DNA of 64,000 nt from Parcubacteria group bacterium (GTDB taxonomy: Bacteria > Patescibacteriota > Minisyncoccia > Moranbacterales > UBA9337), in the NCBI GenBank assembly GCA_041662245.1, contig JBAZSW010000004.1, positions 75,454-139,453 of the forward strand, read 5' to 3'. The position numbers were made by a program, and so were the translations under genes. The notes beneath the pieces were generated by a model, which was not told where the DNA came from, did no database searches, and saw nothing but the letters and a program-made list of their open reading frames with translations. The stretch's first letter is position 1. Each line of letters starts with the position of its first letter. Of the stretch, positions 9,767 to 58,306 are shown piece by piece.

Positions 9767-10552
9767 TTAAGCTTTCCATCTATCATTAATCGCATTTCTA
9801 ACAGGAGCAAATGTTTTGCGGTGAATTTTACAAGGACCATTTTGTTTTAATGCTTCAATATGAATTTTAGTGCCATAACCCTTGTGTTTGGCAAATTGAT
9901 AGGCGGGATATTCTTTATCAAACTTATTCATTATCCTATCTCGCGTAACTTTGGCAATTATAGAAGCAGCTGAGATTGATTTTACTAATTTATCACCGCT
10001 AATTATTGCTTTTTGCTCTAGCGAAAAATTAGGAATCATTTTGTCCCCATCTACTAAAATTATTATTTTTTTCTGCTCTTTAATTTGAGATTTTAAATCT
10101 CCAATTGCTTTTTTCATTGCTAGAAATGTCGCCTCCAAAACATTTATTCTATCTACCGTTTCGTGATTACAAATCCCCACTCCCACATAAAAATTTTCCA
10201 TAATAAATCCAAAAACCTCCTCTCGTCTTTTCTCGCTCAATTTTTTAGAATCTCTGATTAAATCCCACATCCTTTCCTCTCCCCCTCTCCGAGGGGGAGA
10301 TGTCCGAAGGACAGAGGGGGTGTTTCCTATTTTTTTATCATTTGAATTTGATTTGAAATTTGAAATTTGAAATTTTGAATTCCGAACCACTACCGCCGCT
10401 GCCACTACTGGTCCGGCCAGCGGTCCCCTGCCTGCCTCGTCCACACCCACCACAAAATCCCAACCTTTACCAAAAAGATCTTTTTCTAATTCAAACCTGT
10501 CAATCGCAACTGACGGGTTCAAAGTAGATTCTAATTTTACTTTATTTTTCAT
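9767..10552 (-). CDS. rnhB: ribonuclease HII carrying an in-frame insertion of about 40 aa
   Basis: VVGVDEAGRGPLAGPVVAAAVVV catalytic motif and DSKKLSEKRREE; 261 aa vs about 200 typical; extra segment RNSKFQISNFKSNSNDKKIGNTPSVLRTSPPRRGGEERMW lies between these two motifs. Confidence 0.9.
   Translation of the reverse strand: MKNKVKLESTLNPSVAIDRFELEKDLFGKGWDFVVGVDEAGRGPLAGPVVAAAVVVRNSKFQISNFKSNSNDKKIGNTPSVLRTSPPRRGGEERMWDLIRDSKKLSEKRREEVFGFIMENFYVGVGICNHETVDRINVLEATFLAMKKAIGDLKSQIKEQKKIIILVDGDKMIPNFSLEQKAIISGDKLVKSISAASIIAKVTRDRIMNKFDKEYPAYQFAKHKGYGTKIHIEALKQNGPCKIHRKTFAPVRNAINDRWKA
10265..10384 (-). repeat. about 120-nt composite element inserted in-frame in rnhB: GC-rich hairpins plus a TTGAAAT tandem-repeat module
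   Basis: coding-strand hairpins GTCC-TTCG-GGAC and CTCCCCCTC-GGA-GAGGGGGAG; TTGAAAT x4; absent from E. coli and B. subtilis RNase HII at this position. Confidence 0.7.
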
Positions 10553-10783
10553 ATATTTTTAATCATATTAGCACTTTAGCATATTAGTATAAAAACAATA
10601 CAAATGTTCAATAACCAATATTCAATATAAAGATCCTAAGTCTTAAATTCCTAGCTTCCTATTATTCCTAAATTCTTTAAGTATTGCTTTTTCCACATTT
10701 TAATTATACACTTTTTAAACAACTTACAAAGTTGTAATAAAAAAAATAGTACCTCTTACCTTCAATAATATAGGAGAAACAAG

Positions 10784-11527
10784 ATGAAAAAAAGACCAAT
10801 TGGCTTTTCGACTGGAACATTCTTTAAATTCCTAGACCCCATAGTGAAAGAAGCTGTTTATTTCGTGCAAGATTTTGGATGCGACACCATTGAGATTAAC
10901 TGGCATCGCAAAGAATCTCAGCCTCCTCATAAAAATCTAGGCACATTAATTGACAAGCAATTTCAATACGTATCCCTACATTTACCCGTTAATATGTCTG
11001 ACGGTAGTGGTATTTTTAAGGCTAATGAAATTTTAAATCGAGCTTATAGATTTTTTTCTCAGTGTCACGCTTTCAGTCATGCGGTGATTCATCCAAATCT
11101 AATAGTTGATTGGGATGAATTTTATCAGATGTTTAACCACAATCTTGCATTGCCCTTGGCTATTGAAAATATGGACGATCGAAAAAAGTCCTTTAGAGAT
11201 TTACCGTCGCTGTTGGAATTTTTTAAAAAATATCCAGCTATTAGCCTAGTATTTGATGTTAATCATTGGATTATTAATGGCAACAGCGTTTCATCCATTT
11301 CCAAAACTCTCGAAGCGCTTTTTTTGGCTGGAATTAAATTGGTTGGAATTCATCTTAGCGGAGCTGGATTTCATGAACCACTTTTTAGGACTCCCCGTGC
11401 AACGGAAATTGTAAAGTCACTAAGTATACTTCCGTCAAACATTCCCATTATCATCGAAAGTATTTTTGAAAACACAAATGAGCCCGCTCAGGAATTGGCT
11501 TTTATCAAAAAATATCTAGAAATTTAA
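10784..11527 (+). CDS. xylose-isomerase-like TIM-barrel protein (sugar phosphate isomerase/epimerase family), tentative
   Basis: pattern of FSTGTF..., IEINWH, SLHLP, VIHPN, LAIENMDD, FDVNHW; no stronger match. Confidence 0.45.
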   Translation: MKKRPIGFSTGTFFKFLDPIVKEAVYFVQDFGCDTIEINWHRKESQPPHKNLGTLIDKQFQYVSLHLPVNMSDGSGIFKANEILNRAYRFFSQCHAFSHAVIHPNLIVDWDEFYQMFNHNLALPLAIENMDDRKKSFRDLPSLLEFFKKYPAISLVFDVNHWIINGNSVSSISKTLEALFLAGIKLVGIHLSGAGFHEPLFRTPRATEIVKSLSILPSNIPIIIESIFENTNEPAQELAFIKKYLEI

Positions 11528-11550
11528 TATTCACTAGGAGGGACACTCCC

Positions 11551-11853
11551 ATGCAGAAATATTATATCGCATTAATAATATCAAAAGAGCCCATTAATCT
11601 TCCTGAGGATTTATTAAAAGGTAAGGGCATTAGACATTTAATAGCCGAAGAATTTGAGGTAGGAGAAGATATCATATCCGACCCAACCAACGAAGACTAT
11701 TGGCAAATCAAAAAATCTGCCCCAAAGCATTGTGGCGGGATAAATCAACTGCACTATGGAAATGGATTAACAATTTCAGTGGCCATATTAAATTGGCTCA
11801 AAAATCTTTGTGCTTCCACTGCCTATAATCCGTTCTACTTTCAAAAAAGTTGA
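11551..11853 (+). CDS. hypothetical protein
   Basis: strong SD AGGAGGGA upstream; no recognisable domain. Confidence 0.35.
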   Translation: MQKYYIALIISKEPINLPEDLLKGKGIRHLIAEEFEVGEDIISDPTNEDYWQIKKSAPKHCGGINQLHYGNGLTISVAILNWLKNLCASTAYNPFYFQKS

Positions 11854-11880
11854 GTAAATATTATTCTTTTTTCTAAAAAA

Positions 11881-11922
11881 GTGGGCAAAAGACGAAGTCT
11901 TTTGCCCACTTATTTTATTTAT
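11881..11922 (+). terminator. rho-independent terminator
   Basis: perfect 13-bp stem GTGGGCAAAAGAC / GTCTTTTGCCCAC, loop GAA, then TTATTTTATTTAT. Confidence 0.75.
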
Positions 11923-12260
11923 TACCAACTCTTCAAAAAACAAACTCACCGTCTTCTCACGGCCATGAAAAGACTGTGAATTTAATTTTCTAAATTAATA
12001 TATGATCAAATTTGTATTTATTTGTAATTTCGTATGAGTTCGCCCGCCTGCAACGCTGTAGCACTGCGAACAGGTATTTTGTAGAGAACACCCCTTTTCA
12101 ATTCAAGTATTCCATGCTACAATAATTTTGTTAAATAAAAGTTAATTCTAACTTGCAAAAGCCACAGAGCAATCGGGCGTATGAAGATAGAATAAATAAA
12201 TGTTTACGTTTTATAAAAAATTATATCTCAAACCCTGCTTTTTTAAAGTTGAGGTTTTTA

Positions 12261-12295
12261 ATTTTTCACAAAAATAAAATATTTTTGTGAAAAAT
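12261..12295. promoter_or_regulatory. perfect palindrome, 15-bp arms and 5-nt spacer, about 235 bp upstream of dnaE; candidate operator
   Basis: ATTTTTCACAAAAAT-AAAAT-ATTTTTGTGAAAAAT. Confidence 0.5.
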
Positions 12296-12450
12296 TATCC
12301 CGCCCAAAACCTTAACTAACTAATCGAGCTGGTAGAAAATAAGCCGAAGGCGATTTAGAGAACAGCCTATCTGCAAACTCCGGCTGACCCTGGGTTTTGT
12401 TGCGGGATATTTTTCGCTCTAAATTGCAAGGAATAAACCCCTCCCCAACC

Positions 12451-12493
12451 CCTGCCTACCGGCAGGCAGGCTTCCCTTGCTAAGGGCAAGGGG
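12451..12493 (+). promoter_or_regulatory. two adjacent GC-rich hairpins in the dnaE leader
   Basis: CCTGCC-TACC-GGCAGG and CCCTTGC-TAAG-GGCAAGGG, 36 nt before the dnaE ATG in a 30% GC context. Confidence 0.45.
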
Positions 12494-12528
12494 TCAAGAA
12501 GAATAAAATTATTATAATCAAAAAAATT

Positions 12529-15500
12529 ATGGAAAACGACCCTCAAACAATCAAACCTACTAATAAATTTACTCATCTTCATGTTCATAGTCACTATTCA
12601 TTACTGGATGGGCTAGCTAAAATTGATGATCTTCTAAAAAGAGCTAAGGAATTAGGCATGGACTCGCTAGCACTGACCGATCACGGAGTGATGTATGGAA
12701 TTGTAGAATTTTTTATTAAAGCCAAAGAAGCAGGCATTAAACCCATTATTGGTTGTGAAATGTATCTTACTCCCGCTAGTCGTACCAGCAAAAATAACAC
12801 CGCTGAAGATAAAACTCGTTATCATTTAACTCTCTTGGTTAAGAATGAAAAAGGCTACAAAAACTTAATGAAATTAGTTTCCGTTGCTCATCTGGAAGGT
12901 TTTTATTATAAACCTCGTATTGATAAAGAAATTTTAGAAAAATACTGCGAAGGATTAATTTGTATGAGTGGTTGTGTCCAAGGAGAAATTCCTCAAACTA
13001 TTATTAAAAAAACATATGAAGAAGCCAAGGAAATAGCTCTTTGGTATGATAAAATTTTTGGTCGAGGAAATTTCTATATGGAGTTGCAACACCATCCAGG
13101 ACAAGCTGATCAAAAGTTTGCTAATGGAGGTATGATTCAAATATCCAAAGAAACTGGCATCCCTGTAGTCGCCACAGGAGATATTCATTATACCAAAGCG
13201 GAAGATGCTGAAACTCAAGACATCCTTCTTTGTATTCAGATGAATAGAAAGGTTCATGAAAAAAACAGACTGAGCTTAATGGACTTTCATCTCTATATGA
13301 AATCACCCGAAGAGATGGAGGAATTTTTTAAAGATGTTCCCAATGCCGTTAGCAACACCCAAGAAATAGTAGCTAAATGTAATTATGATATTCCCTTGGG
13401 AGAAATTCAACTTCCTTATTTTGAAGTACCCAAAGAGTTCGATGATAAAAGCTACTTGAGATATTTGACCCAAAAGGGTCTTGAAGAAAAATTTGGAGAC
13501 AAAATTACTGACAAGCACCGCGAAAGAATGGAATACGAACTTTCCATTATTGAAAAAATGGGATATTCTCCCTACTTTTTAATCGTTCAAGATTTTGTTA
13601 ACTGGGCTAAACAGCAAGGAATCGTGGTGGGTCCCGGAAGAGGAAGCGCAGCAGGAAGCTTCGTTTCTTATTTGGTGGGAATTACCAATCTTGATCCAAT
13701 TAAATATGATTTGCTTTTTGAAAGATTCCTAAATCCCGAAAGAGTTTCGATGCCTGATGTTGATATGGATTTCGCTGATGATAGGCGCGACGAAGTTTTA
13801 GATTATGTGAGAAAAAAATATGGTGATGATCATGTGGCTCAAATTATTACTTTTGGAACAATGGCGGCTCGTGCAGCCATTCGCGATGCAGGACGTGCTT
13901 TGGATTATCCTTATGACTATTGCGATAAAACAGCCAAGATGATTCCTATGTTTTCCACTATCGCCGAAGCATTAGAGGATGTGCCAGAATTTAGTAATTT
14001 TTATAATTCAGATAAAGATGCTAAAAAATTAATTGATAGTGCTAAAAATTTAGAAGGAGTTTGTCGACATGCTTCTATGCATGCTTGTGGAGTAGTAATT
14101 ACCAAAGAGCCTGTTACTAATTATTCTCCCCTTCAAAAAATTATTGGCAAAGAAGATGGAGTAGTAACTCAATATTCTTCTTCAACTAAAAGTAGCTACG
14201 TGGAAAAAATTGGCCTACTCAAAATGGACTTTTTGGGACTAAAAAATTTAACCATCATTCAAAATGCTATCAACATTATTGAAAAAACCAAAGGAGTTAA
14301 AATAAATATTGATGATATCCCTCTAGATGATGAGGCTACTTATAAACTATTGCAAGCTGCTCATACCACAGGAGTATTCCAGTTGGAATCCTCAGGCATG
14401 AAGCGTTATTTAAAACAACTCAAACCCAACAATCTCGAAGATGTAATTGCAATGGTGGCATTATATCGTCCCGGACCAATGGACTGGATTCCTGATTTTA
14501 TTGACAGAAAGCACGGACGAAAAAGGATTGAATACATTCATCCTAAATTGGAACCCATCTTAAATAAAACTTATGGAGTAGCTGTTTATCAAGAACAAGT
14601 GATGCAAATGGCTCAAAGCTTAGCAGGTTATTCCTTAGGGGGTGCTGATATGCTCAGGAAAGCGATGGGTAAAAAAATTCCCGAATTAATTCAGAAAGAA
14701 AAAATTAAATTCATTGATGGAGCTGTACAAAACGGAGTTAACAGAAAAGATGCCGAAAAAATATTTGCCTTTATTGAGCCTTTTGCAGGCTACGGATTTA
14801 ATCGTAGTCATGCCGCTTGTTATGCTCTTGTTGGTTACCAAACGGCTTATCTCAAAGCCCATTATCCAGCGGAATTCATGGCTGCTTTAATGACCTCTGA
14901 CCAAGGCAACATCGAAAGAATCGCTATTGAAGTGGAGGAATCTCAAGATATTGGAATTGCAGTTTTACCACCTAACGTTAATGAAAGTTTTGGGGAATTT
15001 GCCGTAATTAAAAGTGAAAATGACAAAGTAAATATTCGCTTTGGTTTGAAAGCTATTAAAAATGTAGGCCATACTGTGGCTGATGAAATTGTTAAAGAAA
15101 GAAAACGAAATGGAAAATACAAATCCTTGGCCGATTTCTTAGAAAGAGTTATTACAAAAGATTTAAACAAAAAATCTATTGAAGCATTGGCTAAAGTGGG
15201 TGCGTTAGATGATTTAGGGGAAAGAAACCAAATTATCGAAAACATTGAAATTATCTTGAATTTTTCCAAAAGTATTCAAAAAATAAACAATGCCAATCAA
15301 GATAATCTTTTTGGCGCAATGGAAATAAAAACTCCTGCCATCAAATTAGCGCTAACGATTCCCGCTACCAAAAATCAAAGGTTACATTGGGAAAAGGAGC
15401 TTTTAGGATTGTATGTTTCTGATCATCCTATTTCTGAATACAAATATTTTTTTGAAAAAATGACCACTCCAATTTCATCACTAGATAATTCCATGGTTGG

Positions 15501-16035: not shown

Positions 16036-16043
16036 AATTAAAT

Positions 16044-16069
16044 TCCGAGCGCCCAATTGGGCGCTCGGA
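16044..16069. terminator. perfect 11-bp palindromic hairpin between convergent dnaE and HAD gene
   Basis: TCCGAGCGCCC-AATT-GGGCGCTCGGA; U-run present on minus-strand side. Confidence 0.65.
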
Positions 16070-16087
16070 GATTAAAACTGACAAAGA

Positions 16088-16780: not shown

Positions 16781-16808
16781 AATTCAAGGCGTCTCTCGAA
16801 GCAAAAAG

Positions 16809-32308: not shown

Positions 32309-32660
32309 AACACTACTAATTACCTGCCCGCCAATGCCAATTCATCTTGGCATCAACAATAGCGTTGTAATAGATTAATTTTTTATTTTAAATATAGTTA
32401 ATATTGATAGATATGGCGGGCGGGAGAATTAAATACGAATATACAAATTTCTTTTATTATAAATTAAATAATTAAATAATAAATTATTATATAAATTTCC
32501 AATTTCTAAAAACCATATAGCAATTCACTCCGCACCAACCAATTGTATCATCTCGAGTGGAGCGATAGCGGAATCGAGAGATTTCAGTAAACAATAGATT
32601 CGAGTCATCAGCCAACAGTCATTAAAAAAAGTATTCCTAATTCTTAATTATCTCAAATTC

Positions 32661-33590
32661 TTATTTTCCTAAATTCCCAAATTCACAATACGCTAAATAG
32701 GTATTTTCCAAAAGACACGCCACTGTTACGGGCCCCACTCCTTTGGGAACCGGAGAAATCAAGCAATCAGTTTCTTGAAAACTTTTCAAATCAACATCTC
32801 CAAAAACTTTTTCTGCTTCTTTGATTATTCCACCATCAATTATAATTGCATCATTTTTTGTCATTTGAGAATTTATTAAACTTTTCTTTCCACAAACAGT
32901 TATGATAATATCTGATTTCTTTAAAATATTCCCGTTTCCCAAATCATCACACAAGATGTAGCTTGCTTTAATTCCAATTTTTTCCAATGTCTTTTGCATT
33001 ATTTTGCCAAAATCATCTGATTTACAAATAATAGTTGCCTTTTTACTTTTAAAAAACTCCCGTCTATCGAAATTGTCATCCTTGCGAATGCGGGGATCTC
33101 CGTACTCATAACTGAGATTCCCGTTTTCACGGGAATGACAAGATAATAAAGCACTTTCAATCATTTTTATAATCGCCTTGGGAAAAACTGGAAAAATAGT
33201 TTCTTGATTATTAAAAAAACATTTTTGATTCTCATCACAAAACCCATCCACATCTTTCTCTGGATTAATGGCATTAATAATTTTATGCTTATCTAATTTT
33301 TCCGGCAGAGGCAATTGCACAATTAAACCATGAATATTTTTATCTTCATTAATCTCAGCTATTTTATTTAAAATAACCTTTTCCTCCACATTGGCATCAT
33401 ATTCATAAAGTTTAAAATTCATCCCGATTTCTCTAGCTACTTTTTCTTTTAAACTTACATAAATTTGAGAAGCCTTATTTTTGCCAACTAAAATAACCGC
33501 CAAAGTGGGCTTGAGTTCTTCCTTTTCTATTTTCGCTTTGATATTACTCAAAATATCATCCGCAATCTCTTTCCCTTTTATCAACTGCAT
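32661..33590 (-). CDS. folD: bifunctional methylenetetrahydrofolate dehydrogenase/cyclohydrolase with an in-frame insertion of about 29 aa
   Basis: LAVILVGKNKASQIYVSLKEK, DVDGF, PVPKGVGPVTVACLLEN; extra segment SCHSRENGNLSYEYGDPRIRKDDNFDRRE between the NAD-binding Rossmann entry and KKATIICKS. Confidence 0.9.
   Translation of the reverse strand: MQLIKGKEIADDILSNIKAKIEKEELKPTLAVILVGKNKASQIYVSLKEKVAREIGMNFKLYEYDANVEEKVILNKIAEINEDKNIHGLIVQLPLPEKLDKHKIINAINPEKDVDGFCDENQKCFFNNQETIFPVFPKAIIKMIESALLSCHSRENGNLSYEYGDPRIRKDDNFDRREFFKSKKATIICKSDDFGKIMQKTLEKIGIKASYILCDDLGNGNILKKSDIIITVCGKKSLINSQMTKNDAIIIDGGIIKEAEKVFGDVDLKSFQETDCLISPVPKGVGPVTVACLLENTYLAYCEFGNLGK
33075..33139 (-). repeat. 65-nt GC-rich imperfect palindrome inserted in-frame in folD
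   Basis: arms GTCATCCTTGCGAATGCGGGGATC and GATTCCCGTTTTCACGGGAATGAC (17 of 24 complementary) plus internal hairpin ATTCCCG-TTTTCA-CGGGAAT. Confidence 0.7.
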
Positions 33591-35896: not shown

Positions 35897-38107
35897 TTAT
35901 GCAACGGGATAAATCCGACGGGGCTTCGCTTTATCTTTTTTGTCATTGGAATTTTTATCGCTATCGGCTATCCTTGCTCTTTCTAATATTTTAACAACAC
36001 CTCGCTCAGCATCCACTTCCACCAAATCTCCATCGTGCAAAACTTGCGTGGCGATTTTGGTCCCGATTATACAAGGTTTTTTAAGTTCGCGAGCCACAAT
36101 GGCAGCGTGACAAGTTATACCACCTTCATCAGTCACAAAAGCACCAGCTTTTTTCATAATAGACATGTATCTTGGATCCGTCATAGACGCAACTAATATT
36201 TCTCCTTCTTGAAAATCTTTTGCCTCTTTAATTAATTTTATAATTCTCACTTTCCCTTTTGCCTTGCCCACACGAGCAATGCTTCCTTTTATTTCATCTA
36301 AACTATATTTTTTATTTCTTGTCTTGTCGATTTCATCTAATATTTTACCTGACTTATTTTGAGAAATAGTTTCTATTCCTTCTTTAGAATATTTGCAAAA
36401 GAAAAAATCTTTGCGTTTTAAATAATTATTAGGTAGCTCACCTGAATTTATAAAAGCATCAAGTTCCTCCCCGCTTAGATATTCTAAAGAATCTTTTTCA
36501 ATATTTTTTTCTTCTTCTATTTTATTCAACAATTCTCTTTCCAAAGTTATTCCATCTCTATGAATATTTTCATATCTTTTTCTTGTTTCTATACACAAAT
36601 CTTTTGTTTCCTGACTCAAGTCATCGAGATATTCTGGAGCATAAACTGATACCATAATAATAGCAAACAATTCTTGTATAAAGTTATGAAGTTTTTTAAT
36701 AGATTTTGTCAGATCGACCTGATTATTTTTGAAAAACTCTTCAGCTTCTAAAAGTTTTTTATTATTTTTTGCAATAAATCTTTTATAGTCATCAATATCA
36801 TTTTTTTGAAAATATGCCTTTGGGATTCCCTTATAATCAACTACCGGCAAAAAATGATAAAATATTCCATTTTCCATCAGAGAATACCAAGGATTTGTCA
36901 TGTAATTAGTCACTCTTTCAAAACTGTCACCAAAAACTTCTCTTGCTATAACAGAAGCAATTAATATAGTGTAATCCCTCTGATGTTTTTCATAGATTAA
37001 ATTTTCTTTCTCTACATACTTCATTAAAGTCGTTATCGGTCGACTTTGGGTGATATAAAATTTTCCACCTTCCTGCGCCCATTCGATATCGCAGGGAAAG
37101 CTGTAATGGTTTTCGATTTTGATGATTAAATCTGAAAGTTCGATAATTTCTTTTTCGTTTAATACTTGAGAAGAAGCTTGAGGTTCAGGGATATCTCGCC
37201 ACTCGTTGGCTGAGATTTCTCCACTTCCAAATCTTTGAGTACAAAGATTTGTTCGGTCGAAATGACATGCTCTATATAATCCTCTGTTTTGCGTGCTGAC
37301 ATTAATATCAACAATCGCTTCTCTAATTCTTAATTCATCATTCTTGATTCCCAACTCCTCATTCTTAATTCTTAATTCATAATTCTTAATTCCAGTCTTA
37401 TCCACCACATAACTGTCCGGGGTAACTGATCCCGATACAATTGCTTCGCCAAGTCCAAAGCCTGCTTCAATGATAAGCTGGTTATAATCTTGGGTCACTG
37501 GATGCACCGAAAAAGCGATACCTGATTTCTCAGATTGAATCATTTTTTGCACCACCACTGCTACCGATATTTTCTGCTTGTGCAATTCTTTTTCAAAACG
37601 ATAGAAAATGGCCCGCGAAGTGAAAAGCGATGCCCAGCATTTTTGGACATTTTTTAATAAATCTTTTTCTGTTGTATTAAGATAAGAATTAAGTTGTCCC
37701 GCCCAAGCCGCCTCAGCTCCGTCTTCAGCGGTGGCACTGGATCTTACAGCAACAAACTCTGCGTCTAGTTTTTTAAATTCTTTTTCAACTTCTTTCTCAA
37801 TCTCTACTGGAATTTTTGCTCCAAGAATTAAAGCTTGGATTTTTTCTGACGCTTTTTCAACCGTATGCATTTTTTGCGTATCCACTGTGTCAAGGATAGC
37901 GGAAATTTCCACATTTAAATCAGTTATTTCTAAAAATTTTTCAAAAGCCCCAGCAAGTACCACAAAACCCGAAGGAACTGGATTGCTAGCAGACTTGTCC
38001 GCCGAAGCTTTAGCGAAGGCGGAAGTCATTTCGCCAAGGGACGCTCCCTTGCCTCCGGCAATCAGAACATCGTTCTTATCTAATTCTTTAAAATTTTTAG
38101 TAAACAT
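35897..38107 (-). CDS. PEP-utilising-enzyme family protein: PPDK-type ATP-grasp N-terminus plus C-terminal phospho-His swivel domain; no PEP/pyruvate TIM-barrel (PEP synthase-like or rifampin phosphotransferase-like architecture)
   Basis: N-term GGKGASLGEM; C-term GGITCHAAIVARELKKPCIIGT; contains a 21-nt tandem repeat encoding ELRIKNE / ELGIKND / ELRIRE. Confidence 0.75.
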   Translation of the reverse strand: MFTKNFKELDKNDVLIAGGKGASLGEMTSAFAKASADKSASNPVPSGFVVLAGAFEKFLEITDLNVEISAILDTVDTQKMHTVEKASEKIQALILGAKIPVEIEKEVEKEFKKLDAEFVAVRSSATAEDGAEAAWAGQLNSYLNTTEKDLLKNVQKCWASLFTSRAIFYRFEKELHKQKISVAVVVQKMIQSEKSGIAFSVHPVTQDYNQLIIEAGFGLGEAIVSGSVTPDSYVVDKTGIKNYELRIKNEELGIKNDELRIREAIVDINVSTQNRGLYRACHFDRTNLCTQRFGSGEISANEWRDIPEPQASSQVLNEKEIIELSDLIIKIENHYSFPCDIEWAQEGGKFYITQSRPITTLMKYVEKENLIYEKHQRDYTILIASVIAREVFGDSFERVTNYMTNPWYSLMENGIFYHFLPVVDYKGIPKAYFQKNDIDDYKRFIAKNNKKLLEAEEFFKNNQVDLTKSIKKLHNFIQELFAIIMVSVYAPEYLDDLSQETKDLCIETRKRYENIHRDGITLERELLNKIEEEKNIEKDSLEYLSGEELDAFINSGELPNNYLKRKDFFFCKYSKEGIETISQNKSGKILDEIDKTRNKKYSLDEIKGSIARVGKAKGKVRIIKLIKEAKDFQEGEILVASMTDPRYMSIMKKAGAFVTDEGGITCHAAIVARELKKPCIIGTKIATQVLHDGDLVEVDAERGVVKILERARIADSDKNSNDKKDKAKPRRIYPVA
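37315..37395 (-). repeat. tandem repeat of about 21 nt (about 3.5 units) inside the PEP-utilising enzyme gene
   Basis: plus strand shows repeated ATTCTTAATTC; protein shows heptad units ELRIKNE-ELGIKND-ELRIRE. Confidence 0.6.
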
Positions 38108-48854: not shown

Positions 48855-48870
48855 AAAATAATATTACGAA

Positions 48871-51416: not shown

Positions 51417-51526
51417 AAAAAAATAAATTAATTTCGAATTTGAGTCAAAAAAATAATTTTGATTATTTGAAATTTAAATTAAATGCAATAACACAACTAA
51501 TTTCTCAATGTAACAATACTATTTTT

Positions 51527-51588
51527 CATTAAGTCATTATTGAATTATAAATTCATTCGAAATTCAAAATTGGAAATTCAAAATTTAA
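51527..51588 (+). repeat. dispersed AT-rich repeat copy
   Basis: CATTAAGTCATT...AAATTCATTCGAAATTCAAAATTGGAAATTCAAAATTT. Confidence 0.6.
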
Positions 51589-51648
51589 CTAAAGTATAAA
51601 AAAACTGCTTGCTTTAAATTATACGTATTGAAAAAAATTATTATTCAT

Positions 51649-52515: not shown

Positions 52516-52530
52516 TTATTTATATTTTAA

Positions 52531-53295: not shown

Positions 53296-53391
53296 ATATT
53301 TTTATTTTTTATTTCAATTTCAAAATTTATGCATTTAAATTATTAAGATAAAAAAATATCAATTTTAATTTAAAGAAACAAAAAAATGAGT

Positions 53392-54630
53392 TTATTTTTT
53401 TATATTTCTAATCAAATCCTCCATTTTGACAATTTTGCTTTCGCTAGAAGTTCTTTTTTTTATTTCTGCTCCACCAGCTATCAGTGACTTTTCGCTTATC
53501 ACCACTCGATAAGGAATTCCAATTAAATCGCTATCTGCAAATTTTTCTCCCGCCCGTACATCTCTATCATCAAATAGAACTTCTATATTTTGTGCAATCA
53601 AATCATCGTAAATTTTTTGCGCTTCCTTGTCTTTTCCAAGACTAATTAAATGCACGACAAATGGTGCGACACTCTCAGGCCAAATAATTCCCTTTTCATC
53701 GGCAAAATGCTCTGCAATTACACCCATTAAGCGAGTTATACCAATACCATATGAACCAAGATAGACAGAAATTTGTTTTCCATTTTCATCAGTTACAAAT
53801 AATTTCATATCGTCACATTTGGAAGTGCCGAAATTGAATATATTTCCTACTTCTGCCGATTTCACTTTAGTTAATTCATCTTTAGAAACTCCTAATTCTT
53901 TTAAAACAGTATCCTCCATGACTTCTTCATTTACTGCCAATCCTTTTTCCTTATTAACATAAATAAAATCTTCTCCTGCCTCTGTAATTGTTTGGAATTC
54001 GTGGCTATATTTAGTAAAAGCTCCCCCCGCAGCAAAAGTTATATAAGTAATATCACCCAATCCTACTCGATTAAAAACATTCATATAGGCATTTTTTACA
54101 CTTTCATAAAAAGCTAGATGTCTTTTTTCATCCACATCATAACTGTATAAATCTTTCATTACAAATTCCCTTCCGCGCATAATTCCACTTTTGGCCCTAA
54201 GTTCATTTCTTAATTTTGTCTGAAATTGATAAGCATAAACTGGGAAATCTCGATAGCTAGAAAGAAATCTTTTCATCATTTGAGTAATCGGCTCTTCGTG
54301 TGACCAACCAAAGCCAACCTCTGCTTCATTTTTAAGTTTTGATTTAAACCACACATCCACCACCTCATCACTCCACCGACCGGTTGATTGCCAAACCTCT
54401 TTGGGCTGCAAAGATGACATAATTATTTCTTGTCCCCCAATCGCATTCATCTCTTCTCTTGCAATTGTTTTGATTTTTTCAATAACTCGAATTCCTAAGG
54501 GCAAATAAGCATATACTCCTGCCATTTCTTTGTTGATAAAACCAGCCCTGATCAAAAGCTGAGCATTTTTTGACACTTCATCTTTAGGAAAGTCTTTAGA
54601 TGTTTTGGTAAATAGTTGTGATTGCTTCAT
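53392..54630 (-). CDS. proS: prolyl-tRNA synthetase, short form without editing domain
   Basis: class II core motifs; C-terminal anticodon-binding domain; 412 aa. Confidence 0.9.
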   Translation of the reverse strand: MKQSQLFTKTSKDFPKDEVSKNAQLLIRAGFINKEMAGVYAYLPLGIRVIEKIKTIAREEMNAIGGQEIIMSSLQPKEVWQSTGRWSDEVVDVWFKSKLKNEAEVGFGWSHEEPITQMMKRFLSSYRDFPVYAYQFQTKLRNELRAKSGIMRGREFVMKDLYSYDVDEKRHLAFYESVKNAYMNVFNRVGLGDITYITFAAGGAFTKYSHEFQTITEAGEDFIYVNKEKGLAVNEEVMEDTVLKELGVSKDELTKVKSAEVGNIFNFGTSKCDDMKLFVTDENGKQISVYLGSYGIGITRLMGVIAEHFADEKGIIWPESVAPFVVHLISLGKDKEAQKIYDDLIAQNIEVLFDDRDVRAGEKFADSDLIGIPYRVVISEKSLIAGGAEIKKRTSSESKIVKMEDLIRNIKK

Positions 54631-54740
54631 ATAAGTTTATATTATTCTAAATAAAGCTTATGGTCAAACAATAATATTCATTAAATAGTTCATGCATCAG
54701 TAAATCAGTCCCTTACAAGAATATTAAATTTGAAATTTTG

Positions 54741-55898
54741 CTAAAATATATTTTTTATCTTATCTACAATCTCAAACTGGATGAAATCATGAAAAGTAAC
54801 CACTACCATCAAAAGTAACAATAATAAAAATCCAATTGAATTAGCCATACTTTCAAATTTTTGATTAACTGGGGAGCCTTTTAATTTTTCAATTAAAATA
54901 AAAAATATTCTTCCTCCGTCCAGTGCAGGAAAAGGCAAAATATTAATTATGGCCAGATTAATGCTAAGCATAGCGGCAAACTGTAAAATATAAGTAAAAC
55001 CAAGCGCACTTACTTGTTTGGTCATAATTGCAATTCCAATTGGCCCCGCTACGTCCATAGACGGTTTATTTCCCATAATCAATTGCCCTAGCAGAGCAAA
55101 AAGCGTAGTTACGATAAGAATAGTCATATCAACAACTGCTTCCAATCCTCTACCGATTGATTCATACCATGGGTAATCAATCAAAGCTGTTCTGGCCAAT
55201 CCTACTCCTAGAGCACCTTGATCACTAGGATAATCTACGCGAGGAATGCCACTTAGGCTAAGAATGTCCCCTCCTCTTTTGATAGTCAAAACTATTTCTT
55301 TGCCTTTGCGACCATCAATATATTTTTTCAATTCTTCAACTTTACTCACATATTGACACTCATCATTTCCTGAACAAATTTTTACCACTTGATCTCCGAT
55401 TGCCAGTCCCATTTCTTTAGCAGGAGTTCCCTCTACCACTTGAGAGATCTGCACTTTGGCGTCTTTGGCTTTTTGCGTATCACTGATAGCTTCTGGCGCC
55501 CCTTGAGAAAAAACAATAGCTAAAAGAAACCACGCTAAAATAAAATTCATCGTTACTCCTGCTGCTAGAACTTTTATTCTCACCCAAGCGGATTTAGTAA
55601 CAAAGCTATCTTTATCATTTTTGGCATTGCCGTTTTCTCCTTTAATATTTACAAATCCTCCCAATGGAATCCAATTAAGAGAAAAAATTGTATTTTTCGA
55701 TTTAACTGTTTTTCCGCCCCAAATTATTTTATATTTGCCGGTTTTTTCATTTTTTACCGCTCCTACAATTCTAGGAGGAAAACCAAAACCAAATTCATCA
55801 GCTTTGATACCATTGCGAATAGCCACTAAAAAATGTCCCAACTCATGAACGAAAATTAAAACTCCCAAAATCAAAATAAAGATGATCGCTGTTATCAT
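54741..55898 (-). CDS. rseP: RIP metalloprotease RseP (site-2 protease) with PDZ
   Basis: HELGHFLVA; PDZ; C-terminal LDGG motif. Confidence 0.88.
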   Translation of the reverse strand: MITAIIFILILGVLIFVHELGHFLVAIRNGIKADEFGFGFPPRIVGAVKNEKTGKYKIIWGGKTVKSKNTIFSLNWIPLGGFVNIKGENGNAKNDKDSFVTKSAWVRIKVLAAGVTMNFILAWFLLAIVFSQGAPEAISDTQKAKDAKVQISQVVEGTPAKEMGLAIGDQVVKICSGNDECQYVSKVEELKKYIDGRKGKEIVLTIKRGGDILSLSGIPRVDYPSDQGALGVGLARTALIDYPWYESIGRGLEAVVDMTILIVTTLFALLGQLIMGNKPSMDVAGPIGIAIMTKQVSALGFTYILQFAAMLSINLAIINILPFPALDGGRIFFILIEKLKGSPVNQKFESMANSIGFLLLLLLMVVVTFHDFIQFEIVDKIKNIF

Positions 55899-56109
55899 AA
55901 CAAAAAATATAATATTTAAGATTTAGTGCCAATTCAAAATAGTATGACACTAACATCCTCTATAATAGCCTAATTATAAGAATAAGCCAACTATTGACTT
56001 TTTTATGTTTTTGGTGTATAATTTAAAATCGTAGCTTATGGATAGTTTTTTAGATATATTGACCCAAAAAGGTTAATATTATATCATTTTCCTATTATGG
56101 AGGTTTACT

Positions 56110-56484
56110 ATGGAAATGGATCTCGATCTTTTTTGTCTTATAGTAATTTTTACCGCAGGAACCCTAACTTCTTTCATCATATTTTCTTCAAAACTTGCTC
56201 CAACAACAAAAAGAGTGGCATTAATTGCAGTATTTGCAGTTCAAATGTTATCTCTTGTTTGGGCAACTTCACCAAATTCACCCATTGTAAATAAAGAGGA
56301 TGGTAAACTGGCCGAAAGTCTCAAGGGAATAGACAATCACGGGAAAACTATTCGAGGGCAAAGAGAGGAGAAAGTATGGTCCTTTGGCAATGTTTACGTT
56401 GTCGAAAGAACAATTGTTTATAAACTTCCATTGGGAACGATATACGTTCCTGAAAAAAGGAGAATCATCCACTTAAAATTGTGA
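56110..56484 (+). CDS. hypothetical small membrane protein
   Basis: two predicted TM helices; followed by a strong terminator. Confidence 0.35.
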   Translation: MEMDLDLFCLIVIFTAGTLTSFIIFSSKLAPTTKRVALIAVFAVQMLSLVWATSPNSPIVNKEDGKLAESLKGIDNHGKTIRGQREEKVWSFGNVYVVERTIVYKLPLGTIYVPEKRRIIHLKL

Positions 56485-56489
56485 GGGTT

Positions 56490-56530
56490 CAAGCCAAATA
56501 CGATGTTCGTATTTGGCTTGTTATTTTTTT
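56490..56530 (+). terminator. rho-independent terminator
   Basis: 14-bp stem CAAGCCAAATACGA / TCGTATTTGGCTTG, loop TGT, then TTATTTTTTT. Confidence 0.8.
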
Positions 56531-56744
56531 GTAGAATTATAATCCTACTCTATTAGGCTGACTCCTCAATTTGCACCTCCTTTTTCATTTCTAACAAGGA
56601 GAGAATAAATTAACAAAACAATTCCACAAATAAAAATAGTTATGAAAAACACTATTCTCTTCATTTTGTCCACTATGTTAGATTAATAAAAACATCAGTT
56701 ACTCAATTAATAATTTCCAGCCATCATAATACTAATTGCAATTA

Positions 56745-56790
56745 TTATAAAACAAAAAAACGGATTTATATCAAAAAATTCAAATCCGTT
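56745..56790 (-). terminator. rho-independent terminator downstream of ybjQ-like gene
   Basis: AACGGATTT-loop-AAATCCGTT; minus-strand U-run. Confidence 0.65.
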
Positions 56791-56806
56791 TTTTCTAAAA
56801 AATTTT

Positions 56807-57130
56807 TTATTCAACAATTACGGCTGTGCCATAACATAAAACTTCGGTTACTCCGCCCATCACATCATTAGCGTCATATCTCACTGAAATAATAGCGTTG
56901 GCTCCGAGCTCCTCGGCATGCTTTACCATTAACTCATAAGCCTCTTCCCTGGCTTTTTCACAAAGAGAGGTAAATAAGGTAATATTTCCTCCCAAAATAG
57001 TTTGCAGTGATCCGCCAATCGAACCAAAAATATTCCTCGATCGCACCGTAATCCCTCGCGTCATTCCTAAATTTTGAGTTATCTTTTTTCCTGGCAATTC
57101 TAAAGCTGTAGTTATGTTTTTATGATCCAT
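56807..57130 (-). CDS. YbjQ/UPF0145 family protein
   Basis: full-length similarity pattern ([16 protein letters not shown]...VRYDANDV). Confidence 0.8.
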
Positions 57131-57142
57131 ATTTTTATATAA

Positions 57143-57340
57143 TTAATCATTACTAGTATTAATGCCGAGAATTTTATACAAATAGCAATATCCCGTAACA
57201 GCAGTAAAAATCAAAGCCAAGCCTACAGCATATACTAAGAGAGCGATAATTCCAGAGAATGAAGCGTAAGCGAAAAAAACAATTACAACTCCTAAAATTG
57301 CGCGAATTGCGCGATCCCATGTGCCTTCATTTTTTTGCAT
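57143..57340 (-). CDS. DUF2892 (YgaP-like) small membrane protein
   Basis: WDRAIRAILGVVIV signature; two TM helices. Confidence 0.6.
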   Translation of the reverse strand: MQKNEGTWDRAIRAILGVVIVFFAYASFSGIIALLVYAVGLALIFTAVTGYCYLYKILGINTSND

Positions 57341-57481
57341 ATTTTTTTATCCCGTTAAATTATGGCTGTTCATTTATTTAACTAAGATTATCATTAGACT
57401 ACTTATTATTTTACTCTTTTATTTAATTTTATGCCAATATTTTATCGAACTTCATCACAAATTCAACCATTAAAAAATAGT

Positions 57482-58306
57482 TTATCTCATCACCGCCACT
57501 CCAATAATAATTATTGCCAATACCAACCGATACCAAAAAAATGTTTTATAACTATAATTTTCAACAAATTTAATCAGATATTTTATAGCAACATAACCAC
57601 TAAAGGCCGAAAAAATAATTCCCATTAAAATTTCACTACTAATTCCAGCTTTCATTAATTCTGGAATTTTAGTAAGAGTAGCTCCAAAAATTATCGGGGT
57701 TGAAAGTAAAAAAGAAAATCTGGCCGCACTCACCCTATCTAATCCCATTGCCAATCCAGCTGAAATGGTCGCTCCTGAACGAGACACCCCAGGGATAATT
57801 GCCACCGCCTGAGAGAGTCCAATGATTAAAACGTCTTTAATATTTATTTTATCTAATTGTCTTTTTCCTAAAGCGTATTTATCTAATAAGAATAAAACTA
57901 ATCCAAAAAAAGCTAAGGCAAAAGCAATTATATAGGGACTGCGAAAAATAGTTTCTACATAACTTTCTAAAAAAAATCCAATCACTGCTCCGGGAATTGT
58001 GCCAATCATAAGTAACCACAAAATATTTTTATTATACGAACAGGCCAGTGCCCTATCCCTACCTTCACATTTTTTATTGTAGGAACGGGGTAGTACCCCG
58101 TTCTTAAAAATTTCCACCCAATCTTGCCAAAAATAAATTACTACCGCCAAAAGTGTCCCCGCGTGAAGTGCCACATCAAAAGCCAGTCCTGGGTCTTTCC
58201 AATGAGTAAAAAAGGGAACCGAAACAAGATGTGCCGTGGACGAAATTGGCAGAAATTCTCCCAAGCCTTGTACGATTCCTAATGTGATTGATTGCAACAA
58301 ATCCAT
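57482..58306 (-). CDS. uppP: undecaprenyl-diphosphatase with an in-frame insertion of about 15 aa
   Basis: GIVQGLGEFLPISSTAHL and PGVSRSGATI motifs; extra NKKCEGRDRALACSY encoded by a GC-rich palindrome. Confidence 0.9.
   Translation of the reverse strand: MDLLQSITLGIVQGLGEFLPISSTAHLVSVPFFTHWKDPGLAFDVALHAGTLLAVVIYFWQDWVEIFKNGVLPRSYNKKCEGRDRALACSYNKNILWLLMIGTIPGAVIGFFLESYVETIFRSPYIIAFALAFFGLVLFLLDKYALGKRQLDKINIKDVLIIGLSQAVAIIPGVSRSGATISAGLAMGLDRVSAARFSFLLSTPIIFGATLTKIPELMKAGISSEILMGIIFSAFSGYVAIKYLIKFVENYSYKTFFWYRLVLAIIIIGVAVMR
58041..58103 (-). repeat. GC-rich palindromic element inserted in-frame in uppP
   Basis: GAACGGGGTA-g-TACCCCGTTC near-perfect palindrome, plus CCTAC...GTAGG stem, in a 30% GC gene. 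Confidence 0.7.

What the first reader, a model, noticed from the sequence alone, without database searches (positions are those of the whole stretch)
10265..58103. In-frame GC-rich palindromic insertions inside conserved housekeeping genes (rnhB, folD, uppP), analogous to Rickettsia palindromic elements
Three unrelated essential genes each contain a 45-120 nt GC-rich segment that forms strong hairpins, in an otherwise 30% GC genome. Each maps to a position where the orthologs of E. coli (RNase HII, FolD) or the typical family sequence (UppP) have no residues, and in every case the reading frame and flanking catalytic motifs are preserved. Selfish palindromic DNA that tolerably colonises surface loops of proteins is established for Rickettsia RPEs, but I am not aware of it being described for this kind of genome; that it is the same phenomenon here is inference. 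The dnaE leader (12451-12493) and the 32309-32660 spacer carry similar GC hairpins, suggesting the family also lands in non-coding DNA.
Basis: partly seen in the sequence, partly recalled or inferred. Interest (0 to 1): 0.8.

Follow-up and report, generated by a model that had tools for sequence, protein, structure and literature searches.

The report
Hairpin repeat elements inside essential genes
Several housekeeping genes of this tiny-genome (Candidate Phyla Radiation) bacterium carry short, GC-rich, hairpin-forming repeat elements inserted in frame into protein loops; these belong to repeat families found across many bacterial phyla, a Rickettsia-like phenomenon I found no report of in this lineage.

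Summary
The window is a Moranbacteria/Parcubacteria (CPR) genome at about 32% GC. RnhB (+36 aa), FolD (+29 aa) and UppP (+10 aa against close relatives) each carry an in-frame, hairpin-forming GC-rich insert. Orthologs without the insert exist for all three. AlphaFold2 models the RnhB and FolD inserts as low-confidence coil on well-folded cores.

They are three different repeat families, not one, and each is single-copy in the 64 kb.

- **folD:** an inverted pair of CGTC-1 REPs. These equal the Neisseria dRS3/NTS and the "Ssn-related motif", the superfamily that includes Rickettsia RPE-4 and RPE-6.
- **rnhB:** a double hairpin whose 26-nt core recurs exactly in Chloroflexota, Bacteroidota, Proteobacteria, CPR and phage contigs. 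It is 46/47 nt identical between CPR genomes whose rnhB genes are only 67% identical.
- **uppP:** a decayed pair of GTAG-headed hairpins.

The same families sit elsewhere, intergenic or in other genes, in related genomes. The RnhB loop holds at least six repeat types across 120 orthologs. A fourth gene in the window (ppsA-like) is also hit.

Verdict: a new member of a known kind (intragenic REP/RPE-like elements), here in CPR. One new lead: the rnhB family is associated with DUF559 nuclease genes in other phyla.

The parts
9767..10552 (-). rnhB (RNase HII, 261 aa), the host gene
   Evidence: Pfam RNase_HII E=1e-33, split into two stretches. PDB alignment to 3O3G and 2ETJ.
10265..10381 (-). Whole rnhB insertion (aa 58-96, 117 nt): an AT-rich heptad repeat followed by a GC-rich double hairpin
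   Evidence: Aligns to 3 residues of T. maritima RNase HII. AF2 pLDDT about 50 and coil over residues 61-88, on a core with pLDDT above 90.
10274..10322 (-). 'Family B' element AACACCCCCTCTGTCCTTCGGACATCTCCCCCTCGGAGAGGGGGAGAGG (encodes NTPSVLRTSPPRRGGE). Hairpin 1 is TGTCC-TTC-GGACA; hairpin 2 is CTCCCCCTC-GGA-GAGGGGGAG.
   Evidence: Strongest fold in the window with a 12-bp stem. 46/47 nt identical in L002 and L005 although the genes are 67% and 80% identical. The core is found in at least 120 loci of many phyla.
10327..10381 (-). AT-rich (AATTTCA)n repeat part of the rnhB insert (encodes NSKFQISNFKSNSND...)
   Evidence: The same repeat is found in intergenic spacers at 9028-9051, 9734-9764 and 58945-58975: 8 matches against 0.02 expected. 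Related peptides occur in 55 of 120 orthologs.
32661..33590 (-). folD (309 aa), the host gene
   Evidence: Pfam THF_DHG_CYH and THF_DHG_CYH_C. PDB alignments.
33054..33155 (-). Whole folD insertion (aa 146-179)
   Evidence: Aligns to 5 residues of 6APE. 100 of 120 orthologs have the 27-33-aa form of this stretch against 58 aa here. AF2 pLDDT 53-73 and coil.
33074..33140 (-). Tail-to-tail dimer of CGTC-1 REPs (dRS3/NTS-like, 'Ssn-related motif'). Left arm TGTC-ATTCCCGT-GAAA-ACGGGAAT-CTC at 33114-33140(-). Right arm TGTC-ATCCTTGC-GAAT-GCGGGGAT-CTC at 33074-33101(+).
   Evidence: Fits the head/stem/loop/tail definition in PMC3733652. The right arm matches the published SRM pattern exactly and the left arm with one substitution; it is the only exact match in the window, against 0.03 in shuffles. 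Fold z = -3.8.
57482..58306 (-). uppP (274 aa), the host gene
   Evidence: Pfam BacA E=2.6e-79. PDB 5OON alignment.
58034..58106 (-). uppP loop replacement (net +30 nt). It holds a perfect hairpin GTAG-GAACGGGGTA-G-TACCCCGTTC (58079-58103, read on +) facing a decayed hairpin GTAGGGATAGGGCACTGGCCTGTTCGTAT (58034-58062, read on -).
   Evidence: Codon alignment against the empty-site ortholog L128. 18 close orthologs have the 48-aa stretch against 58 aa here; P0392, P0393 and P0401 share decayed versions. Fold z = -3.3 to -3.4.
37999..38022 (-). Fourth in-frame insert: hairpin CCGCCTTCGCTAAAGCTTCGGCGG ('family D', encodes FAKASADKSA) in the N-terminal ATP-grasp domain of a PEP-synthase-like gene (35897-38107, -)
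   Evidence: 10-aa gap against PEP synthase 8A8E right after GGKGAxLGEMT. Fold z = -2.6. A related copy lies in frame in thrS of L002.
37323..37399 (-). AT-rich 21-nt tandem repeat inside the same PEP-synthase-like gene (encodes IKNYELRIKNEELGIKNDELRI)
   Evidence: Direct repeat family D1. Region aa 259-311 is 52 aa against about 18 in 8A8E.
12451..12492 (+). Two adjacent GC hairpins in the dnaE leader (CCTGCCTACCGGCAGGCAGG and CCCTTGCTAAGGGCAAGGG): a non-coding copy of yet another hairpin type
   Evidence: Peptides of the CCTGCC..GGCAGG type (PACR, AGRQ) occur in RnhB and UppP loops of other genomes.
32323..32424 (.). Long-range inverted repeat CCTGCCCGCCA...TGGCGGGCGGG enclosing an AT-rich segment, in the folD-downstream spacer
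   Evidence: Fold z = -4.4, 0 of 200 shuffles as stable. Family not identified.

Best explanation
The inserts are copies, some intact and some decaying, of small non-autonomous palindromic repeat elements of the REP/MITE kind. They belong to several unrelated families.

**Family assignment.**
- folD: a CGTC-1 / dRS3-NTS / Ssn-related-motif dimer.
- rnhB: a 'CCCCCTC...GGGGGAG' double hairpin of a pan-bacterial family.
- uppP: a GTAG-headed hairpin pair.
- ppsA-like gene: a GCTTCGCTAAAGCTTC-type hairpin.

**How it works.**
- These elements land, or are recombined in, throughout the genome. In these CPR genomes most copies seen are intergenic.
- Inside genes, only insertions survive that have a length divisible by three, are free of stop codons, and sit in a permissive surface loop.
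- GC-rich sequence in a 32%-GC genome is poor in stop codons in most frames, which makes survival easier.
- Survivors are translated as extra disordered loop residues and then decay under the genome's AT bias.

**Shown.**
- Presence/absence polymorphism among orthologs.
- Family membership.
- The same family at different loci in related genomes.
- Element DNA far more conserved than the host gene.
- Predicted loop disorder.

**Inferred.**
- That the residues are actually translated.
- The insertion mechanism. The most likely route is ssDNA-hairpin-specific nucleases or transposases acting in trans (Ssn-type GIY-YIG for the CGTC family), or import by recombination. No such enzyme is encoded in the window.
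For: **Real insertions.**
- PDB alignments show gaps of 36, 29 and 10 aa between conserved motifs.
- Empty-site orthologs exist at 66-80% identity.

**Hot spots with many families.**
- The RnhB loop spans 26-85 aa across 120 orthologs and carries at least 6 recognisable repeat-derived peptide types.
- The FolD site carries the CGTC dimer in the window and in L003. It carries a degraded family-B copy in L004, P0126 and P0129, and GTAG-type peptides in P0175 and P0180.

**Nucleotide-level conservation.**
- Family B is 46/47 nt identical between the window and L002, whose rnhB is 66.8% identical (binomial P = 1.4e-7). Both variable positions lie in hairpin loops.

**Dispersal.**
- Family B lies in at least 120 loci of Chloroflexota, Bacteroidota, Proteobacteria, Melainabacteria and others. 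It has at least 3 intergenic copies in a complete Moraniibacteriota genome.
- Family A lies in at least 120 metagenome contigs, mostly as intergenic dimers.
- In L002, families A, B and D sit intergenic, in rnhB and in thrS respectively.
- L003 has one element nested inside another.
- A public contig, AMFJ01002490, ends exactly inside the rnhB element, as repeats cause in assemblies.

**Family definition.**
- The folD arms meet the CGTC-1 criteria and the SRM pattern.
- Small GIY-YIG genes flanked by such REPs were recovered independently. This matches Chenal et al. 2025.

**Structure.**
- AF2 cores have pLDDT above 90 while the inserts are at 50-73 and coil.
- The identical rnhB insert is present in an independent Logan assembly.
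Against: - Each element is single-copy in the 64-kb window, so copy number in this genome is unknown.
- No target-site duplication or clean insertion boundary was found.
- No transposase, GIY-YIG or DUF559 gene is present in the window or in the related CPR loci.
- The rnhB element sits at exactly the same codon position in 7 orthologs. That could reflect shared ancestry plus constraint, or recombination between relatives, rather than independent transposition.
- Translation of the inserts has not been demonstrated.
Confidence: 0.8

Rival explanations
1. The inserts are lineage-specific functional loops. The extra residues are ordinary, vertically inherited protein extensions selected for a function in CPR bacteria, and their hairpin potential is incidental.
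For: The AT-rich part of the rnhB insert (NFQFPISNFQSNSNDQISNDK-like) is shared by 55 of 120 orthologs. The rnhB GC element is at the same codon position in 7 orthologs. A roughly 10-aa extension (NFDRxEFFKS) downstream of the folD element is shared by the clade whatever element lies upstream.
Against: Close orthologs lack the GC parts. Unrelated repeat types occupy the same site in different genomes. The same DNA occurs intergenically and in other genes and phyla. Conservation is at the nucleotide and hairpin level, including third codon positions. AF2 predicts no structure for the inserts.
Confidence: 0.07
2. The inserts are not translated. They would be removed or skipped (a mini-intron, RNA processing, or translational bypass over a stable hairpin), so the frame would be irrelevant.
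For: The hairpins are very stable: the rnhB element is the strongest fold in the window. CPR bacteria are known for intervening sequences in rRNA genes (review PMC10221324).
Against: Every insert seen in 360 orthologs of three genes, plus ppsA and thrS, is stop-free and a multiple of 3 in length, although the protein database favours intact ORFs. The elements are 24-67 nt, far below group I/II intron or intein size. There is no Rfam hit in the window or in 8 loci. Decayed copies that no longer fold (L004 folD, the second uppP hairpin) still keep the frame.
Confidence: 0.04
3. Spread is by recombination rather than transposition. The elements would move between related genomes as part of short gene-conversion or transformation patches, with hairpin repeats acting as recombination hot spots or as signals that modulate ssDNA restriction. 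That would explain identical elements at identical codon positions.
For: The position in rnhB is identical across orthologs of 55-90% identity, with patchy distribution and near-identical DNA. No target-site duplication was found. In Neisseria, the NTS/dRS3 repeats of the same family modulate integration of transforming ssDNA through SsnA (PMC11893778) and are proposed recombination substrates (PMC1797815).
Against: It does not explain the first arrival at new sites: family B in folD as well as rnhB, family D in ppsA as well as thrS. No ssn homolog was seen in the CPR sequence available.
Confidence: 0.09

Closest known systems
Rickettsia palindromic elements (RPE-1 to RPE-10; Ogata et al. 2000/2002, summarised in PMC10969869)
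   Same: Palindromic repeats inserted in frame into unrelated housekeeping genes of a small, AT-rich, host-dependent genome. They are tolerated as extra loop residues and also occur intergenically. According to PMC3733652, RPE-4 and RPE-6 are CGTC-type REPs, the same superfamily as the folD insert.
   Different: The classical RPE-1 is about 100-150 bp and encodes a conserved peptide. Here the elements are 24-67 nt, belong to several families, are low-copy in the sequence available, and are in Patescibacteria rather than Alphaproteobacteria.
CGTC-1 REPs, equal to Neisseria dRS3/NTS and to 'Ssn-related motifs' (Di Nocera 2013, PMC3733652; Bentley 2007, PMC1797815; Chenal 2025, PMC11893778)
   Same: The folD arms have a TGTC head, an 8-bp stem starting with AT, a 4-nt loop and a short tail. 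The left arm contains ATTCCC-N8-GGGAAT and differs from the NTS consensus at 5 of 28 positions, two of which form a compensatory pair. The right arm matches the SRM search pattern exactly. The arms form a dimer with heads outward, as in NTS-ssnA-NTS units.
   Different: The copy is intragenic and translated, single in 64 kb, and no ssn (GIY-YIG) gene is seen nearby. Di Nocera 2013 does not list this phylum among its hosts, and Chenal 2025 does not mention it.
GTAG-tagged REPs, REPINs and their RAYT transposases
   Same: The uppP insert is a head-to-head pair of hairpins, each preceded by GTAG, like REP doublets. GTAG-type peptides (VETRLIASLR) occur in FolD loops of relatives.
   Different: One hairpin is decayed. 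The GTAG scan is not above chance in the window (1 hit against 0.4 expected). No RAYT gene was seen.
Intragenic REPs of Opitutus terrae, Xanthomonas, Thauera and others (PMC3733652)
   Same: REP singles or dimers encoding 20-30 aa inside known proteins, enriched in DNA replication and repair genes (here rnhB). Different REPs sit at about the same site of one gene in related species (recB there; rnhB and folD here).
   Different: Here there are many more families per site, and the genome is not REP-rich.
Mobile GC clusters of yeast mitochondrial DNA (from my own knowledge, not checked here)
   Same: GC-rich palindromic elements in a very AT-rich genome, some lying in frame in a protein gene (var1).
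   Different: An organellar system with unrelated sequences.

Membership tests
CGTC-1 REP (Di Nocera 2013) | Unpaired head CGTC (variants TGTC or CCTC) at one end | tested here: met
   Both folD arms start with TGTC; definition.
CGTC-1 REP (Di Nocera 2013) | 8-bp stem with A and T in the first and second positions, and a 4-nt loop | tested here: met
   Left arm ATTCCCGT/GAAA/ACGGGAAT is perfect. Right arm ATCCTTGC/GAAT/GCGGGGAT has two G.T pairs.
CGTC-1 REP (Di Nocera 2013) | Short unpaired tail (consensus CCA) | tested here: inconclusive
   The tail is CTC in both arms. A tail is present but is not the consensus.
CGTC-1 REP (Di Nocera 2013) | Repeated many times in the host genome | tested here: inconclusive
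   One dimer in the 64-kb window and one intergenic dimer in 20 kb of relative L002. The whole genome is not available. The motif is abundant in metagenomes.
Ssn-related motif / NTS (Chenal 2025) | Match to HGTCWYN(0-2)YYVSBRHN(0-5)WNVSBRGN(0-2)RNCYNB | tested here: met
   The right arm is an exact match and the left arm has 1 substitution. Shuffled windows give 0.03 matches.
Ssn-related motif / NTS (Chenal 2025) | Cognate GIY-YIG ssn gene in the genome, often flanked by the motif | tested here: not met
   No tblastn hit in the window or in the CPR loci. The association was seen in other metagenome loci: L147, L210, L216, L227, L233 and L075. Only about 6% of this genome was searched, so absence from the genome is not shown.
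Ssn-related motif / NTS (Chenal 2025) | Bound and cleaved as ssDNA by the Ssn nuclease | not testable with these tools
   Biochemical assay.
Rickettsia palindromic elements | Palindromic repeat inserted in frame in conserved genes, with orthologs lacking it | tested here: met
Rickettsia palindromic elements | Sequence membership in one of the RPE families | not tested
   No RPE sequences were compared directly. The link rests on the statement in PMC3733652 that RPE-6 is CGTC-1 and RPE-4 is CGTC-4.
Rickettsia palindromic elements | The inserted residues are expressed in the protein | not testable with these tools
   Needs proteomics.
GTAG REP / REPIN | GTAG head plus stem-loop, pairs in inverted orientation, many copies, and a RAYT gene | tested here: inconclusive
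   Two GTAG-headed hairpins lie head to head in uppP. There is only 1 canonical hit against 0.4 expected by chance. No RAYT was found among the 20 ORFs of unidentified function scanned against Pfam.
MITE | Terminal inverted repeats plus target-site duplication | tested here: not met
   The elements are palindromic, but no target-site duplication appears in the filled-versus-empty comparisons.
Self-splicing intron or intein | Size and conserved ribozyme or splicing motifs | tested here: not met
   The elements are 24-117 nt. Rfam gives no hit. The inserts encode 10-39 aa.

The most novel reading that the evidence does not exclude
The rnhB element (core CCCCCTCTGTCCTNCGGACATCTCCCCC...GGGGGAGA) may be the cognate hairpin repeat of DUF559 (Vsr-like PD-(D/E)XK) nucleases. 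That would be a second nuclease-plus-hairpin selfish or domesticated system, parallel to GIY-YIG Ssn with NTS and to RAYT with REP. It would be spread across phyla, and its solo repeats would colonise protein loops in CPR and Bacteroidota. In CPR, which live by taking up foreign DNA, the stock of such repeats could be replenished from other phyla.
Probability: 0.35. Interest if true: 0.7.

Novelty: new member of a known kind. Interest (0 to 1): 0.5.

Why it matters
Four reasons it matters:

- **Scope.** In-frame colonisation of proteins by palindromic repeats would extend from Rickettsia and a few REP-rich Proteobacteria and Verrucomicrobia to the Candidate Phyla Radiation. CPR genomes are tiny, and every housekeeping gene is presumed to be under tight constraint.
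- **Annotation.** Length variation in CPR proteins, low-complexity 'disordered' loops, and contig breaks inside genes can all come from repeat elements.
- **Method.** Loops such as the RnhB beta2/DSK loop act as natural insertion-tolerance maps.
- **New lead.** One of these repeat families shares an exact 26-nt core across at least seven bacterial groups and phage contigs. It sits next to DUF559 genes, which points to a testable partner nuclease for a domain of unknown function.

Tried and rejected
- **Rfam.** The whole window at gathering threshold, and 8 family-B loci at E<=1, gave nothing. No curated RNA family explains the hairpins.
- **Further copies in the window.** Searches with up to 3-5 mismatches found none for any family.
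- **Target-site duplications.** Codon-level filled/empty alignments showed none that is convincing. The SYNKK/SYNKN direct repeat in uppP and the 13-nt GGGGGAGAGGAAA duplication in L005 may be slippage.
- **Mobilising enzyme in the window.** Pfam scans of 20 ORFs of unidentified function found no transposase, GIY-YIG or DUF559. tblastn was also negative.
- **More of the same genome.** The two flanking look-ups returned only short Logan contigs, so genome-wide copy number stays untested.
- **Recurrent neighbour gene for family A.** The only specific hit was the small GIY-YIG. This turned out to be already published as Ssn, so I do not claim it as new.
- **Literature.** No paper in the library combines CPR/Patescibacteria with intragenic palindromes, and none contains the family-B core sequence.
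- **Intron, intein or assembly artefact.** Rejected on size, on frame conservation, and because the insert is present in independent assemblies.

Full report
**What the window is.** It is 64 kb at about 32% GC, with genes mostly on the minus strand. RnhB, FolD and UppP are 100% identical to proteins of a 'Parcubacteria group bacterium' MAG on a 163,808-bp contig. Their nearest relatives are Candidatus Moranbacteria/Moraniibacteriota. This is a Candidate Phyla Radiation (Patescibacteria) genome.

**Checking the observation: RnhB and FolD.**
- Against solved structures, RnhB residues 58-96 face only three residues of T. maritima RNase HII. The insert lies between the DEAGRG strand and the DSK motif.
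- FolD residues 146-179 face five residues of 6APE. The insert lies between the inter-domain helix and the first Rossmann strand.
- The GC-rich part of the rnhB insert is the most stable 60-nt fold in the entire window: -35 kcal/mol against a mean of -5.4. It has a 12-bp stem.
- The folD insert is a 67-nt imperfect palindrome (z = -3.8).
- With DNA parameters, the four in-gene elements have z-scores of -2.6 to -3.4.
- AlphaFold2 models built from 80-sequence alignments give confident cores (mean pLDDT 84.6 and 92.8). The inserts are coil at pLDDT of about 50 (RnhB 61-88) and 53-73 (FolD about 151-180).

**Checking the observation: UppP.**
- UppP is only about 9 aa longer than E. coli UppP, in a loop that varies from 37 to 110 aa family-wide.
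- Among close relatives (70-75% identity), 18 have a 48-aa stretch against 58 aa here. The three nearest relatives share decayed versions of the same insert.

**Orthologs show hot spots, not a fixed loop.**
- Across 120 Moranbacteria-type RnhB proteins, the stretch between AGPVVA and DSKKL runs from 26 to 85 aa. It contains peptide signatures of at least six repeat types (counts):
  - TPSVLRTSPPRRGGE, the window's type, in six complete orthologs plus one contig-end fragment.
  - TPPQSSPWEGEE.
  - CHPELVSGS...ILKQVQDDK.
  - GRD...RLY.
  - PACR/AGRQ.
  - PPFPxGE.
  - In addition, an AT-rich NFQFPISNFQSNSNDQISNDK type in 55.
- 21 orthologs have a stretch of 35 aa or less.
- In FolD, 100 of 120 orthologs have the 27-33-aa form. 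Only the window's nearest relatives are expanded, and with different contents:
  - the same element as the window in P0122;
  - a half-deleted copy in P0123 and P0125;
  - the rnhB-type element in P0126, P0129 and P0131.

**DNA-level comparison.**
- The rnhB element AACACCCCCTCTGTCCTTCGGACATCTCCCCCTCGGAGAGGGGGAGA differs at 1 of 47 positions in L002, and likewise in L005. The genes are 66.8% and 79.5% identical at nucleotide level.
- The binomial probability of that match given 66.8% identity is 1.4e-7.
- Both variable positions fall in hairpin loops. Conservation therefore acts on the nucleotide sequence or hairpin, or the copies are recent. It is not protein-level conservation.
- L004 carries a degraded copy of the same element in folD, in the same reading frame.
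- L003 has a second hairpin nested inside the left arm of the folD element.
- In 20 kb of L002, three families occupy different places than in the window:
  - the folD-type dimer is intergenic;
  - the ppsA-type hairpin is in frame near the C-terminus of ThrRS;
  - the rnhB type is in rnhB.
- No target-site duplication was found.
- A public contig ends exactly inside the rnhB element.
- An independent Logan assembly reproduces the window's rnhB insert.

**What the families are: folD.**
- Each arm reads TGTC + 8-bp stem starting with AT + 4-nt loop + CTC tail. This is the CGTC-1 REP definition of Di Nocera et al. 2013.
- That paper equates CGTC-1 with Neisseria dRS3 (ATTCCC-N8-GGGAAT) and with R. 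conorii RPE-6. It already documents in-frame intragenic REPs in several species, often in replication and repair genes.
- Chenal et al. 2025 showed that the longer NTS form (CGTCATTCCCGCGMAVGCGGGAATCYRG) is bound and cut as ssDNA by the small GIY-YIG nuclease SsnA. They also showed that NTS-ssnA-NTS units are widespread.
- The window's right arm matches their degenerate SRM pattern exactly, and the left arm with one substitution. No other exact match occurs in 64 kb, against 0.03 in shuffles.
- A metagenome scan with the left arm returned at least 120 contigs of 28-70% GC. Most are heads-outward dimers in intergenic DNA, and 13 of the 126 matches lie inside long ORFs.
- Before I found the 2025 paper, neighbour-gene clustering had independently recovered small GIY-YIG genes tightly flanked by these REPs.

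**What the families are: rnhB.**
The loci come from Anaerolineales and other Chloroflexota, Bacteroidaceae, Chitinophagaceae, Abditibacterium, Ruminococcus, Melainabacteria, Chlorobiota, Rhodothermales and a cultured Mesorhizobium.
- The hits include at least three intergenic copies in the complete Moraniibacteriota genome CP175956.1.
- 16 phage contigs also carry the core.
- The architecture is a fixed 5' module followed by a TCTCCCCC/GGGGGAGA stem that encloses a variable loop of 3-60 nt.
- It matches no Rfam family and does not fit the GTAG or CGTC definitions.
- In Bacteroidota it also occurs inside long ORFs, in L037 and L075.

**A new lead found on the way.**
- I clustered all ORFs from the 136 family-B loci. 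The top cross-locus cluster is a roughly 120-aa DUF559 protein (PF04480, E = 1e-33 to 1e-41).
- tblastn finds DUF559 in 17 of 136 family-B loci against 0 of 120 family-A loci (Fisher p = 1.4e-5).
- In ten loci the repeat lies within about 200 nt of the gene. It flanks the gene on both sides in L063 (direct) and L089 (inverted dimers). In L072 the repeat-plus-gene unit is tandemly duplicated.
- DUF559 belongs to the Vsr-like PD-(D/E)XK clade, which includes a homing endonuclease.
- None of the 25 papers that mention DUF559 links it to repeats.
- This resembles NTS-ssnA-NTS and REP-RAYT units. It suggests, but does not show, a cognate nuclease-repeat pair.

**The uppP insert and the rest of the window.**
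- The uppP insert is a perfect hairpin and a decayed one, each preceded by GTAG and facing each other, like a REP doublet. One canonical hit is not above chance in the window, against 0.4 expected, so family assignment stays open.
- The PEP-synthase-like gene (35897-38107) carries a 10-aa GC-hairpin insert right after GGKGAxLGEMT, plus an AT-rich tandem repeat and further extra sequence.
- The AT-rich half of the rnhB insert is the same (AATTTCA)n repeat that fills several intergenic spacers.
- Non-coding GC hairpins exist in the dnaE leader and in the spacer downstream of folD.
- GC-rich hairpins are about threefold enriched over shuffles in the window: 11 against 3.2.

**Interpretation.**
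- The best explanation is that several families of small palindromic repeats enter CPR genomes and survive inside genes only where they are in frame, stop-free and in permissive loops. They then decay there.
- Still inferred: that the inserts are translated, how they are inserted, and what the copy number is in this genome.
- No mobilising enzyme is present in the sequence available.
- The identical codon position in rnhB across diverged genomes leaves room for spread by recombination between relatives.

**Novelty and score.**
- In-frame REP/RPE-type elements are established in Rickettsia, Opitutus, Xanthomonas and others. The folD family and its nuclease are already described.
- New here are the host lineage (CPR), the multi-family hot-spot behaviour of particular loops, the cross-phylum identity of the rnhB family, and its association with DUF559.
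- I rate it a new member of a known kind, of moderate interest.

Noticed in passing
L047, L063, L065, L071, L072, L078, L082, L089, L090, L095 (loci fetched with the rnhB-element core): Small DUF559 (PF04480) genes lie within about 200 nt of the family-B hairpin repeat. The repeat is on both sides of the gene in L063 and L089. DUF559 is found in 17 of 136 family-B loci against 0 of 120 family-A loci. This looks like a nuclease-plus-repeat unit analogous to NTS-ssnA-NTS.
   Followed up: partly
L075:1-2634 (Dokdonia sp. MAG): A leucyl-tRNA synthetase reading frame contains an in-frame DUF559 nuclease domain (aa 92-195) and, further on, a family-B repeat copy near KMSKS. A cluster of CGTC REPs and a GIY-YIG gene follow the stop codon.
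   Followed up: partly
L003:271-5601: In Moranbacteria GW2011_GWF2_34_56 the PPDK_N/PEP-utilizers protein is called as 1776 aa, against 736 aa for the syntenic gene in the window (35897-38107). It is either a fusion or a massive insertion.
   Followed up: no
window 9028-9051, 9734-9764, 10351-10381, 58834-59017, 61505-61643: AT-rich (AATTTCA/AATTTGA)n heptad repeats fill several intergenic spacers, and one copy is translated inside rnhB. Similar NFQ/SNDQ peptides are in RnhB and UppP loops of many relatives. Their function is unknown.
   Followed up: partly
L265:1-50 (AMFJ01002490.1): A public contig ends exactly inside the rnhB palindromic element, so its RNase HII is annotated as 'partial'. 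These repeats break assemblies inside genes.
   Followed up: yes
L005:2496-3275: This rnhB ortholog has a further 39-nt segment after the element, bounded by a 13-nt direct duplication (GGGGGAGAGGAAA). This suggests slippage or a second insertion at the element's 3' end.
   Followed up: no
L129-L144 (IMG/VR contigs): The family-B core occurs in 16 viral contigs, with up to 4 copies in one (L132). Several of these phages are syntenic with each other. They could be a vehicle for spread across hosts.
   Followed up: no
window 32323-32424 and 32545-32590: The folD-downstream spacer holds an 11-bp GC-rich inverted repeat enclosing about 80 nt of AT-rich DNA (z = -4.4). It also holds a segment (ATCATCTCGAGTGGAGCGATAGCGGAATCGAGAGATTTC) that looks like a decayed CGTC-type REP.
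   Followed up: partly
window 38033-38053: A 9-bp GC hairpin (GCCAAGGGACGCTCCCTTGCC) coincides with the conserved GGKGASLGE motif of the PEP-synthase-like gene. It is probably a chance palindrome in conserved coding sequence, not an insert.
   Followed up: yes
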